Assembly: GCF_009914755.1 (NCBI RefSeq)
Contig: NC_060936.1
DNA: 64,000 bases
Strand: one strand, 5' to 3'
Source: the human T2T-CHM13v2.0 reference genome, Homo sapiens
The notes under the pieces were generated by a model. It was not told the DNA's origin and did no database searches. It saw nothing but the letters and a program-made list of their open reading frames with translations. This document shows, in pieces, positions 26,010-27,578 of the stretch. A program made the translations under genes and the position numbers. Every line of letters begins with the position of its first letter. The stretch's first letter is position 1.

Positions 26010-27220
26010 TGTAAAAAGTAAAGTAGAGGTTCTTCTTTAAAGACTTTCCTTATTATTTAATTAGGAATAAATAGTAACTTCTTTTAGAAGCAAAATTTAT
26101 TTAAAGACCTGTGCTAAATTTTTTGTTGTTGTTGTTGTTGAGACGGAGTCTCATTCTGTCGCCCAGGCTGGAGTGCAGTGGTGCAGTCTTGGCTCACTGC
26201 AAGCTCCACCTCCTGGGTTCACGCCATTCTCCTGCCTCAGCCTCCCAAGTAGCTGGGACTACAGGCATCCACTACCACGCCCAGCTAATTTTTTTGTATT
26301 TTTAGTAGAGACAGGGTTTCACTGTGTTAGCTAGGATGGTCTCGATCTCTCGATCTCCTGACCTCGTGATACGCCTGCCTCGGCCTCCCAAAGTACTGGG
26401 ATTACAGGCGTGAGCCACCACACCCAGCTGACCTGTGCTAAAATTTTTTTTTTTTTTTTTTTTGAGATGGAGTCTTGCTCTTTCGTCCAGTCCAGACTGC
26501 AGTGGTCCTATCTTGGCTCACTGCAAGCTCCATCTCCTGGGTTCGCACCATTCTCCTGCCTCAGCCTCCCAAGTAGCTGGGACTACAGGCGCCTGGCTAA
26601 TTTTTTGTATTTTTAGTAGAGACGGGGTTTCACTGTGTTAGCCAGGATGATCTCGATCTCCTGGCCTCGTGATCCACCCGCCTTGGCTTCCCAAAGTGCT
26701 GGGATTACAGGCGTGAGCCACCGCGCCCAGCTATGCTAACATTTTTAAATATTTGCTAGCTGCAATAAAGAAATTAATGTATTTTATGTTTTTAGTTCCT
26801 GCAATTTAGTCTAAATATTTGCCTTGGCCTGCTAATACTGGTCCAAGCAAGTATTGGGTCATAGCTTGTTCCTCTTCTTTATTTGAAGGTGTTTTTATTT
26901 TTCTCAGCATTTTACAAGTTACTTCCTTCTTCCTTTGTTTTCCTCTACCTTTGCCTCTTTTAAAAAGTTTTAAGTTGCTAGCCAATTAGGACAAATACAG
27001 AATGTAAAGTCTCGTTCCAGCCAATGGAAACTGGACACAGCAGTAGGATGGATGCGTCAGCTTATAAATGACCCTGTCTCCTTTGTTTGGTGTACTGTTG
27101 TGGCAAAACTGCTGGTGAGTGTACCCTTTCTGCAGGAAGTAAAAATGGCCTTGCTGAGTAAATTAAATTTATGTTCAAGTGCTATGTCTTTGTGGCACCG
27201 GGGAACAAACATTTCAGACA
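26010..27220 (+). mobile_element. ERV1 solo LTR (LTR10 family, C/E-like), interrupted by two antisense Alus (~26120-26730)
   Basis: TG...CA termini; 4-bp flanks CCTT/CCTC; two CCAAT boxes, TATA box TATAAA (27063-27068), ATTAAA (27162). Resembles the recalled LTR10 consensus. Confidence 0.75.
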
Positions 27221-27418
27221 CCTCCTAGGAAACAGATAGGAGCCCCTGAGGCCAGGATTGACTGCTGGCACCTGTTCAATATATATTCTCTGCACCTGTA
27301 CTACCATGAATTGTAAAATTAAAAATATATACGTGTATATATTCTCAACATCCTGTGAAAGGAAGGGAAAAATAACAACAACAAAAAATATACATCTACA
27401 TATTCTCTCTGAAACCAG

Positions 27419-27578
27419 GTTAATGACCCAGAGACTGCAGTAAAGGAATTAGAAGCTCTCTTGGGTTTTACATTGAGAGTAGGTGTTCCAAACACTCGGC
27501 CTGTGAAAAAGACGATGGAAATTCCGAAAGATTCCTTGCAGAAGTACCTCAAAGACTTACTGGGTATCCAGACCACAG
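27419..27578 (+). CDS. ACAD10: ACAD10 exon 6 (160 nt), HAD/kinase junction
   Basis: ccag|GTTAAT...ACAG|gtatgt; [53 protein letters not shown] (c.850). Confidence 0.95.

What the first reader, a model, noticed from the sequence alone, without database searches (positions are those of the whole stretch)
27040..27520. Candidate LTR-driven internal promoter yielding an ACAD11-like (kinase+ACAD, no HAD, no presequence) ACAD10 isoform
Seen: a sense-oriented solo LTR ends 199 nt before exon 6. It retains two CCAAT boxes, a CRE-like TGCGTCA (27053-27059), TATAAA (27063-27068) and, about 45 nt further, a strong donor CTG|GTGAGT (27114/27115). Splicing to the exon 6 acceptor (27419) puts the first in-frame ATG at 27515 (M263) in optimal Kozak context (ACG-ATG-G: -3A, +4G). 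Only a weak-context 6-codon uORF (27423-27443) precedes it. Established: M263 sits at the start of the APH-kinase domain, and the paralog ACAD11 is kinase+ACAD without HAD. Inference: a primate-specific LTR could make a phosphatase-less ACAD10 lacking the N-terminal presequence. I recall the consensus as GCGAGT here, so CpG decay may have created the donor.
Basis: partly seen in the sequence, partly recalled or inferred. Interest (0 to 1): 0.8.

Follow-up and report, generated by a model that had tools for sequence, protein, structure and literature searches.

The report
Old LTR10C retroviral remnant in ACAD10
A roughly 30-million-year-old retroviral remnant in an ACAD10 intron still looks like a promoter with a splice site and could on paper make a shortened enzyme, but nothing found here shows that it is used.

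Summary
The element is a solo LTR10C (HERV-I, ERV1) at 26010-27220. It lies in the sense orientation, is split by two antisense Alus (26118-26730), and is flanked by a CCTT/CCTC target duplication.

The CCAAT boxes, TATAAA and ATTAAA are family traits, present in 31-37 of 39 other copies. The GT of the donor sits on a decaying CpG. Of 40 copies, 19 read TG, 15 CG and 5 CA, and the TG copies do not cluster. TATAAA plus GTGAGT occurs in 16 of 39 other copies, so this architecture is not special to ACAD10.

M263 lies in the linker exon between the HAD and APH domains and aligns to about residue 18 of ACAD11.

No evidence of use was found. RefSeq has no such exon. One TEProf2 table lists an LTR10C-ACAD10 transcript in 65 of 66 tumour and 44 of 44 normal pancreatic samples, but its splice target is exon_7, not the next exon. 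Rows of that kind dominate the ubiquitous entries (21 of 30), which points to intron-tail read-through.

Verdict: a real, already annotated LTR. The proposed isoform is plausible in silico but unsupported.

The parts
26006..26009 (+). Left copy of the target-site duplication (CCTT)
   Evidence: Other copies show 4-bp duplications, and here CCTT matches CCTC at 27221-27224 in 3 of 4 bases.
26010..26117 (+). LTR10C 5' piece (start of U3, begins TGTAAAA)
   Evidence: 19 of 19 flanked copies align to about 26009-26117 directly upstream of their match to 26731-27220; 28 of 39 other copies match the ACAD10 copy's TGTAAAA at the 5' end (27 in register, 1 shifted by one base).
26118..26730 (-). Two antisense Alu insertions that split the LTR
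   Evidence: The sequence is poly-T-first Alu and is absent from the other LTR copies.
26731..27220 (+). LTR10C 3' piece (rest of U3, R and U5; ends ...ACA)
   Evidence: 86-90% identity to at least 39 other copies, with 721 first-look candidates; the RepeatMasker interval hg38 chr12:111711810-111712299 is labelled LTR10C/ERV1 and maps exactly to 26731-27220.
26982..26986 (+). CCAAT box 1
   Evidence: Present in 32 of 39 other copies.
27021..27025 (+). CCAAT box 2
   Evidence: Present in 31 of 39 other copies.
27053..27059 (+). CRE-like TGCGTCA, sitting on two decaying CpGs
   Evidence: Identical in 7 of 39 other copies; variants include CGCGTCA (8) and CGCATCA (8).
27063..27068 (+). TATAAA
   Evidence: Present in 35 of 39 other copies.
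27112..27120 (+). Consensus-like 5' splice site CTG|GTGAGT
   Evidence: It is the only GGTRAGN match in 26731-27418. It is identical in 15 of 39 other copies. The annotated ACAD10 donor at 17231 is ATG|GTGAGT.
27124..27136 (+). Acceptor-like CCCTTTCTGCAG, downstream of the donor
   Evidence: the TTTC-TGCAG core is kept in most copies. No use is known.
27162..27167 (+). ATTAAA, the likely LTR polyadenylation signal
   Evidence: Present in 37 of 39 other copies. The function is inferred.
27221..27224 (+). Right copy of the target-site duplication (CCTC)
27419..27578 (+). ACAD10 exon 6 (aa 231-283), the HAD-APH linker
   Evidence: Hub annotation. No Pfam family matches it, while exon 5 matches the end of the HAD profiles and exon 7 matches APH profile positions 2-40.
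27423..27443 (+). 6-codon uORF (context TTA|ATG|A)
27515..27517 (+). ATG of M263 (context ACG|ATG|G), in frame

Best explanation
The stretch is a fixed solo LTR10C of the gammaretrovirus-like HERV-I, about 30 My old. It inserted in the sense orientation into ACAD10 intron 5 and was later split by two antisense Alus.

It keeps the family's core promoter layout (two CCAAT boxes, TATAAA, ATTAAA). Through ordinary CpG decay it also carries a consensus-like 5' splice site about 22 nt past the expected cap site.

On paper this gives an mRNA whose main ORF starts at M263 and encodes a kinase+ACAD protein with no HAD domain and no presequence.

In practice the LTR is most likely silent, or at most a minor source of unspliced intronic RNA. 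The one catalogue record that starts in it is best read as intron-5-tail read-through into exon 6, not as LTR-driven splicing.

Shown: the anatomy, the family, the age and the frame. Inferred: the silence.
For: Anatomy and family:
- Searches give the boundaries, the copies and the target duplication.
- Searches give the LTR10C label and the coordinate match.

The architecture is common in the family:
- TATAAA plus GTGAGT occurs in 16 of 39 other copies.
- All four motifs together occur in 10 of 39.
- LTR10C shows no enhancer-like chromatin in HCT116 cells, and LTR10 elements carry H3K9me3 in normal tissues (passages).

No sign of constraint:
- The ACAD10 copy is more diverged from the others (K2P 0.140) than the all-pairs mean (0.111).
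- It keeps 3 CpGs against a median of 6 in the other copies.

Annotation and catalogues:
- RefSeq lists 2 ACAD10 transcripts, and neither has an exon in the LTR (hub annotation).
- No LTR10C-ACAD10 transcript appears in the supplements held for PMC11909889, PMC12229592, PMC13116134 and PMC10696462.
- PMC12129084 Table S1 lists only an AluSz-ACAD10 transcript (that file was cut when stored).

The one positive record, in PMC12863058 Table S3:
- The ACAD10 row runs intron_5 to exon_7. It is present in 65 of 66 tumour and 44 of 44 normal samples, at 8-11% of gene expression, with 69 and 46 mean junction reads.
- Of the 30 'ALL' rows in the same table part, 21 run intron_n to exon_n+2, many from promoterless old repeats (L2c, MIR3, Alu). 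Only 3 of 30 tumour-specific 'Filtered' rows do so.
- The ACAD10 row has about 21 junction reads per TPM. The four other LTR10C rows, all n to n+1, have 0.02-0.7.

What other LTR10C copies do:
- None of the 3 LTR10C-initiated loci in PMC12129084 Table S1 uses the TATA-proximal sense start with this donor. Two are antisense, and one is sense from the 5' part of U3.
Against: - The promoter-plus-donor-plus-ORF chain is complete and has no in silico flaw.
- LTR10C copies are enriched among promoters of transcripts induced by TP53 activation in three cell lines (passages of PMC12129084), so the family can fire under some conditions.
- The TEProf2 record does place a transcript 5' end inside this LTR piece in nearly all samples. 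The table gives no exon coordinates, so my reading of its structure is an inference.
- The catalogues I could search mostly list filtered, tumour-specific events from a few tissues. I could not look at any CAGE, GTEx, testis or placenta data.
- Immunofluorescence in human tissues reported ACAD10 outside mitochondria (passages of PMC7728233). A presequence-less form could contribute to that.
Confidence: 0.7

Rival explanations
1. In some tissue or state (germline, placenta, hypomethylated or p53-activated cells) the LTR10C TATA promoter fires. The roughly 22-nt first exon splices 27114>27419, and ribosomes start at M263. The product is a cytosolic ACAD10 with no HAD domain and no presequence, whose kinase is no longer restrained.
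For: - The motif chain is complete, and only a weak 6-codon uORF precedes M263.
- The donor differs from the used ACAD10 donor at 17231 only at position -3.
- M263 lies in the interdomain linker and aligns to about residue 18 of ACAD11.
- The HAD domain restrains the kinase.
- LTR10C is enriched among TP53-induced TE promoters.
Against: - No junction or TSS evidence appears in any source I could reach (hub annotation).
- In the 110 pancreatic samples of PMC12863058, the ACAD10 row is the only ACAD10 entry in the held supplements, and it is not an intron_5-to-exon_6 row.
- The first exon would be only about 15-30 nt.
- The same architecture occurs in 16 of 39 other copies, so it does not predict activity.
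- None of 3 documented LTR10C starts uses this TSS and donor.
Confidence: 0.08
2. Transcription really does start in the LTR10C 3' piece, but the cap-proximal donor is not used. The first exon runs on through the last 199 nt of intron 5 into exon 6 and then splices normally. This is the structure implied by the TEProf2 record. The long leader makes the RNA mostly non-productive.
For: - PMC12863058 Table S3 gives TE location intron_5 and splice target exon_7, in 65 of 66 tumour and 44 of 44 normal samples, at 8-11% of ACAD10 expression.
- A run-on leader from 27093 would be 422 nt long with 5 upstream ATGs, one in the strong context AAA|ATG|G.
Against: - The same n-to-n+2 pattern is seen for 21 of 30 ubiquitous rows, many from promoterless old repeats. 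This fits partial intron retention or pre-mRNA assembled by StringTie.
- No RefSeq model has this structure.
- The exon coordinates of the record were not available.
Confidence: 0.15
3. The LTR acts mainly in the other direction or as a regulatory element. It could be an antisense start site about 125 nt from its 3' end, or a stress- or p53-responsive element, with no effect on the ACAD10 coding output.
For: - Two of 3 LTR10C-initiated loci in PMC12129084 Table S1 are antisense to the LTR. Their starts lie 122 and 128 nt from the LTR 3' end, which corresponds to about 27092-27098 here.
- LTR10C is described as a source of p53 sites.
Against: - The best match in this copy to the 20-nt p53 pattern has 3 mismatches, one of them in a core position. 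The window holds 11 sites that good or better.
- No antisense transcript is annotated here.
Confidence: 0.05

Closest known systems
LTR10C solo LTRs of HERV-I (ERV1), the family this element belongs to
   Same: - TG...CA ends and a 4-bp target duplication.
- About 600 bp long, 86-90% identical to other copies.
- Shared CCAAT, TATAAA and ATTAAA layout.
- RepeatMasker label LTR10C at the matching hg38 interval.
   Different: - Split by two Alus.
- Somewhat more diverged than its relatives.
- Lies in the sense orientation 199 nt upstream of a coding exon.
Intronic LTR promoters that make N-terminally truncated proteins (for example ALK-ATI from an LTR16B2 in ALK intron 19, THE1B-CSF1R, MLT1-ERBB4). 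These examples are recalled and come from no call.
   Same: A sense intronic LTR upstream of exons that encode the catalytic domains. An internal in-frame ATG would give a shortened protein that lacks its N-terminal regulatory or targeting part.
   Different: Those cases rest on 5' RACE, CAGE and junction reads. Here no TSS or junction has been seen.
ACAD11, the paralog with kinase + ACAD architecture
   Same: A protein starting at M263 would begin at about residue 18 of ACAD11 and keep the whole APH and ACAD parts.
   Different: ACAD10 ends -KHRI and aligns only as far as residue 769 of the 778 residues of mouse ACAD11. It therefore lacks ACAD11's C-terminal tail, where that protein's predicted peroxisomal signal lies.
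TEProf2 'intron_n to exon_n+2' entries (a run-on first exon that starts in an intronic repeat)
   Same: The ACAD10 row shares the pattern, the ubiquity, the lack of tumour enrichment and the high junction-read counts of 21 of 30 neighbouring rows.
   Different: Unlike L2, MIR or Alu, this repeat does carry a plausible promoter, so a real start cannot be excluded.

Membership tests
LTR10C / HERV-I solo LTR (ERV1) | Many dispersed copies alignable over the full length | tested here: met
   721 first-look candidates, of which 40 were scored (the locus itself plus 39 other copies at 88-90% identity over 481 nt); full-length matches of about 575-592 nt.
LTR10C / HERV-I solo LTR (ERV1) | TG...CA termini and a short target-site duplication (4 bp for ERV1; this rule is recalled) | tested here: met
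   TGTAAAA...ACA, CCTT/CCTC flanks here, and clear 4-bp duplications at many other copies.
LTR10C / HERV-I solo LTR (ERV1) | Curated repeat annotation of this locus | tested here: met
   the table row reads LTR10C, LTR, ERV1, chr12:111711810-111712299. The offset derived and checked at a GT donor places it at 26731-27220.
LTR10C / HERV-I solo LTR (ERV1) | Solo LTR, with no internal proviral sequence attached | tested here: met
   a target duplication on both sides and unique intron sequence beyond.
Exapted LTR alternative promoter of a host gene | Transcription start inside the LTR | tested here: inconclusive
   an assembled transcript starts in the LTR piece, but it belongs to a class that is mostly read-through. 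No CAGE data could be reached.
Exapted LTR alternative promoter of a host gene | Splice junction from an LTR donor to a host exon | tested here: not met
   No 27114>27419 junction appears in RefSeq (hub annotation) or in the six catalogues searched. The only record targets exon_7. Junction databases were not available.
Exapted LTR alternative promoter of a host gene | Translatable ORF in the chimeric mRNA | tested here: met
   in silico only.
ACAD11-like protein form | APH kinase + ACAD domains, no HAD domain, no N-terminal presequence | tested here: met
   in silico, for the hypothetical product.
ACAD11-like protein form | C-terminal peroxisomal signal | tested here: not met
   ACAD10 ends -KHRI, 9 residues before the end of ACAD11. 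The PTS1 consensus is recalled.

The most novel reading that the evidence does not exclude
In anthropoid primates, the intron-5 LTR10C acts as a conditional internal promoter, firing for example on p53 activation or in the hypomethylated germline or placenta. Its cap-proximal donor, created by CpG decay, splices to exon 6. Translation from M263 then gives a cytosolic ACAD10 with no HAD domain, whose 4-hydroxyacyl-CoA kinase is freed from HAD restraint. This would be a primate-only, extra-mitochondrial arm of 4-hydroxy-acid catabolism, and it could explain reports of ACAD10 outside mitochondria.
Probability: 0.07. Interest if true: 0.6.

Novelty: already known. Interest (0 to 1): 0.2.

Why it matters
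If the isoform existed, it would be a clean example of a retroviral remnant remodelling a metabolic enzyme. It would remove both the mitochondrial address and the domain that restrains the kinase. It would do so in primates only, at a locus (12q24, ACAD10-ALDH2) that is much studied in metabolic genetics.

As things stand, the value of this check is cautionary:
- An intact-looking TATA box plus a strong donor is a family-wide property of LTR10C (16 of 39 copies) and does not predict use.
- 'TE-initiated' rows that run intron_n to exon_n+2 in TEProf2 tables should not be read as promoter evidence.

Tried and rejected
- **Older ACAD10 papers.** He et al. 2011 (PMC3073726) and Bloom et al. 2018 (PMC5524623), which may describe ACAD10 transcripts, are not held.
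- **Literature searches.** ACAD10 + LTR + 'alternative promoter' found 0 papers. ACAD10 + LTR as whole words found 6 papers, 5 listed, none on this topic by title or abstract. ACAD10 + isoform found 139 papers, 12 listed, none on an internal promoter. Two searches with min_terms did not require ACAD10, so they were uninformative.
- **p53 site.** The best 20-mer has 3 mismatches, the same as in 32 of 40 copies, and is not above the window background. I rejected it as evidence for p53 control of this copy.
- **TG-donor subfamily.** Rejected. The mean distance within TG copies is 0.1026 against 0.1012 between groups, and 1143 of 2000 random groups are as tight.
- **Exon 6 against the PDB.** Gave only chance ribosomal hits. 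Exon 7 was used instead.
- **LTR as a terminal exon.** I considered acceptor 27136 plus ATTAAA 27162 as a premature terminal exon. No transcript supports it, such an exon would be only about 50 nt, and I read no in-frame stop before the likely polyA site. I did not pursue it.
- **Supplements.** bioRxiv supplements are closed. PMC12129084 Table S1 was cut when stored, so an LTR10C-ACAD10 row could lie beyond the cut.
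Full report

Yes.
- CCAAT at 26982 and 27021
- TGCGTCA at 27053
- TATAAA at 27063
- CTGGTGAGT at 27112, with the cut after 27114
- ATTAAA at 27162
- the acceptor AG at 27417-27418
- the uORF ATG ACC CAG AGA CTG CAG TAA at 27423-27443
- the ATG at 27515

Splicing the annotated coding exons in a script shows that 27515 is codon position 1 of residue 263, a methionine.

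With a start at 27085, 27093 or 27100 and splicing 27114>27419, the leader is 111-126 nt long. The only upstream ATG is the uORF (context TTA|ATG|A), and M263 has the context ACG|ATG|G.

The pattern TATAAA N30-60 GGTRAGT occurs once in the 64-kb window against 0.08 expected. With a CCAAT in front it occurs once against 0.01 expected. These are post hoc patterns, so the figures overstate significance.

**2. What is it?**

*A repeated LTR.* Searching the window's own genome with 26740-27220 gave 721 first-look candidates. Forty places were scored: the locus itself plus 39 others at 88-90% identity.

*Boundaries.* BLAST of 25900-27500 against the 19 flanked copies shows that each aligns to about 26009-26117 and then, contiguously in the copy, to 26731-27220. 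The element is therefore about 599 bp, interrupted by 613 bp. That insert consists of two poly-T-first (antisense) Alus.

*Ends.* It begins TGTAAAA and ends ACA. Most other copies show 4-bp target duplications, and here the flanks are CCTT and CCTC. None of the 39 copies showed proviral sequence next to it in the short flanks printed. This one is solo.

*Family name.* The name comes from a published table. Supplemental Table S3 of PMC12863058 has a row 'LTR10C, LTR, ERV1, Chr12 111711810-111712299, intron_5, ACAD10'.

*Coordinate check.* An ACAD10 exon listed in hg38 in another table (111733923-111734068) equals window exon 48844-48989. This gives hg38 = window + 111,685,079, which maps the LTR10C interval exactly onto 26731-27220. 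The same offset puts a reported Alu exon end on a CAG|GT donor at 45815.

*Age.* Passages of bioRxiv 10.1101/2021.10.28.466196 state that LTR10A-G derive from the gammaretrovirus HERV-I, which entered the anthropoid genome about 30 My ago. They also state that LTR10C is a source of p53 sites and shows no enhancer-like chromatin in HCT116 cells. My mean pairwise K2P among the 40 copies is 0.111, or 0.097 without CpG-prone columns. That is about 5% per lineage, which fits that age at commonly quoted primate rates (the rates are recalled).

**3. Are the motifs special to this copy?**

No. Counts among the 39 other copies:

| Motif | Copies with it |
|---|---|
| CCAAT box 1 | 32 |
| CCAAT box 2 | 31 |
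| TATAAA | 35 |
| ATTAAA | 37 |
| exact donor 9-mer | 15 |
| TGCGTCA | 7 |

- *Donor dinucleotide.* The 40 copies read TG 19, CG 15, CA 5 and AG 1 at this position. TG copies are no closer to each other (0.1026) than to the rest (0.1012), and 1143 of 2000 random groups are as tight.
- *Sampling caveat.* The 39 copies are those most similar to the ACAD10 copy.
- *How common the architecture is.* TATAAA plus GTGAGT co-occur in 16 of 39 copies, and all four motifs in 10 of 39.
- *No sign of constraint.* The ACAD10 copy is more diverged than average (0.140 against 0.111) and keeps 3 CpGs against a median of 6.

**4. The protein logic**

- Pfam scans of single exons show that exon 5 (aa 178-230) matches the last positions of the HAD profiles (PF00702 positions 145-191 of 191). 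Exon 6 matches nothing. Exon 7 (from aa 285) matches APH positions 2-40 of 239.
- Against the PDB, ACAD10 aa 287-330 align to mouse ACAD11 residues 42-85 (8v3v, E = 6e-11). By ungapped extrapolation, M263 falls at about ACAD11 residue 18.
- A product starting at M263 would therefore hold the whole kinase and ACAD parts and none of HAD.
- Passages of PMC11342911 say that the HAD domain lacks a full DxD motif, has negligible phosphatase activity, and restrains the kinase. ACAD10 is also cleaved by the mitochondrial processing peptidase near residue 617. 'De-restrained kinase' is therefore a better label than 'phosphatase-less'.
- From the DNA beyond the window, ACAD10 ends ...ELKHRI. It aligns to ACAD11 only up to residue 769 of 778, so it lacks ACAD11's tail. 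A form starting at M263 would most likely be cytosolic (inference).

**5. Is it used?**

*Annotation.* RefSeq lists two ACAD10 transcripts. The only extra exon is 25194-25286 (hub annotation).

*Main-text searches.* None links ACAD10 to an LTR promoter.

*The one positive record.* This is the TEProf2 row above. Its splice target is exon_7. It is present in 65 of 66 tumour organoids and 44 of 44 normals (5 normal organoids plus 39 paratumour samples), at 8.3% and 11.2% of ACAD10 expression. It has 69 and 46 mean reads on the intron upstream of the target and is not tumour-enriched.

*What the pipeline counts.* TEProf2 builds on StringTie assemblies and counts reads on the intron upstream of the splice target (passages of PMC12863058 and of PMC10696462).

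*How the row should be read.* A donor at 27114 joining the next exon would be listed as exon_6. Part 64 of the same table, where the ACAD10 row sits, compares as follows:

| Table half | n to n+2 | n to n+1 | Intergenic |
|---|---|---|---|
| 30 'ALL' rows (present in 64-65 tumours) | 21 | 7 | 2 |
| 30 'Filtered' tumour-specific rows | 3 | 22 | 5 |

- Many of the n-to-n+2 rows start in L2c, MIR3, MER1A or Alu.
- The ACAD10 row has about 21 junction reads per TPM. The four other LTR10C rows (CTBP2, IQCD, ATF2, SAR1B) have 0.02-0.7.
- The simplest reading is a first 'exon' that starts in the intronic repeat, runs through exon 6 and uses the canonical exon 6-7 junction. That is intron-tail read-through or, less likely, an unspliced LTR start.
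- The table gives no exon coordinates, so this reading is an inference.
- Such a run-on leader from 27093 would be 422 nt long with five upstream ATGs.

*Negative look-ups.* ACAD10 is absent from the held supplements of PMC11909889, PMC12229592, PMC13116134 and PMC10696462. PMC12129084 Table S1 covers TP53 wild-type and knock-out cell lines with and without doxorubicin, and the file was cut when stored. It has only an AluSz-ACAD10 transcript.

*Other LTR10C starts.* That table lists three LTR10C-initiated loci:
- RIC3 and ZBTB44-DT are antisense to the LTR, starting 122 and 128 nt from its 3' end.
- ZNF121 is sense but starts 123 nt from the 5' end, with a donor 248 nt from the 5' end.
- None of the three uses the TATA-proximal sense start with this donor.

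*Points in favour of activity.* The same paper reports LTR10C enriched among promoters of transcripts that rise on TP53 activation in all three cell lines (passages). However, the best p53-pattern match in this copy has 3 mismatches and is not above the window background. PMC7728233 reports ACAD10 immunostaining in both mitochondria and peroxisomes in human tissues, and multiple database transcripts that differ at the 5' or 3' end (passages). This is compatible with a presequence-less form but is not evidence for one.

**6. Verdict**

The anatomy is confirmed and refined. Its weak points are:
- a first exon of only about 15-30 nt;
- an architecture shared by many silent relatives;
- no TSS or junction evidence;
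- a single transcript record of a different and probably artefactual structure.

The closest known systems are intronic LTR promoters that make truncated kinases, such as ALK-ATI (recalled, from no call). This locus resembles them in layout but fails the defining test of an observed LTR-to-exon junction. Public CAGE and junction databases, which I could not reach, would settle the question quickly.

Noticed in passing
window 25194-25286: The extra exon of the longer RefSeq isoform is a classic antisense-Alu exon. Its acceptor is TTTTTTGTAG|A at 25193/25194 and its donor is ACAG|GTG at 25286/25287. It adds 31 residues between exon 5 and exon 6, in the HAD-kinase linker.
   Followed up: partly
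window 45689-45815 (hg38 chr12:111730768-111730894): PMC12129084 Table S1 lists a tier-3 TE-initiated transcript, AluSz-ACAD10 (TU9452). It starts in an antisense AluSz in the intron before exon 48844-48989. Its first exon ends exactly on a CAG|GT donor at 45815. It would miss HAD and much of the kinase.
   Followed up: partly
window 26108-26121, 26430-26446, 26732-26745: The two Alus inside the LTR each carry their own target duplications. GACCTGTGCTAAA appears before and between them, and a related CTATGCTAAC appears after the second. They therefore inserted one after the other at nearly the same spot of the LTR, 108 nt from its 5' end.
   Followed up: no
window about 27092-27098, minus strand: In two other LTR10C copies (RIC3, ZBTB44-DT), published assemblies start antisense 122 and 128 nt from the LTR 3' end. 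This is the same spot as the predicted sense start, so the family's core promoter may be bidirectional.
   Followed up: partly
PMC12863058 Supplemental Table S3, part 64: Among the TE-chimeric rows present in nearly all samples, most run intron_n to exon_n+2 and start in promoterless old repeats. This looks like a systematic run-on-first-exon class in raw TEProf2 output.
   Followed up: partly
L041 7011-7394 (window about 71011-71394): The last ACAD10 coding exon ends ...VAKLELKHRI. It stops 9 residues before the end of mouse ACAD11 in the PDB alignment, so ACAD10 has no counterpart of ACAD11's C-terminal tail.
   Followed up: yes
G000 contig C23 (8 of the 40 scored places): A fifth of the best-matching places (8 of 40) lie on contig C23. 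Two of them (26,344,238 and 26,965,738) have identical scores and may be copies inside a segmental duplication.
   Followed up: no
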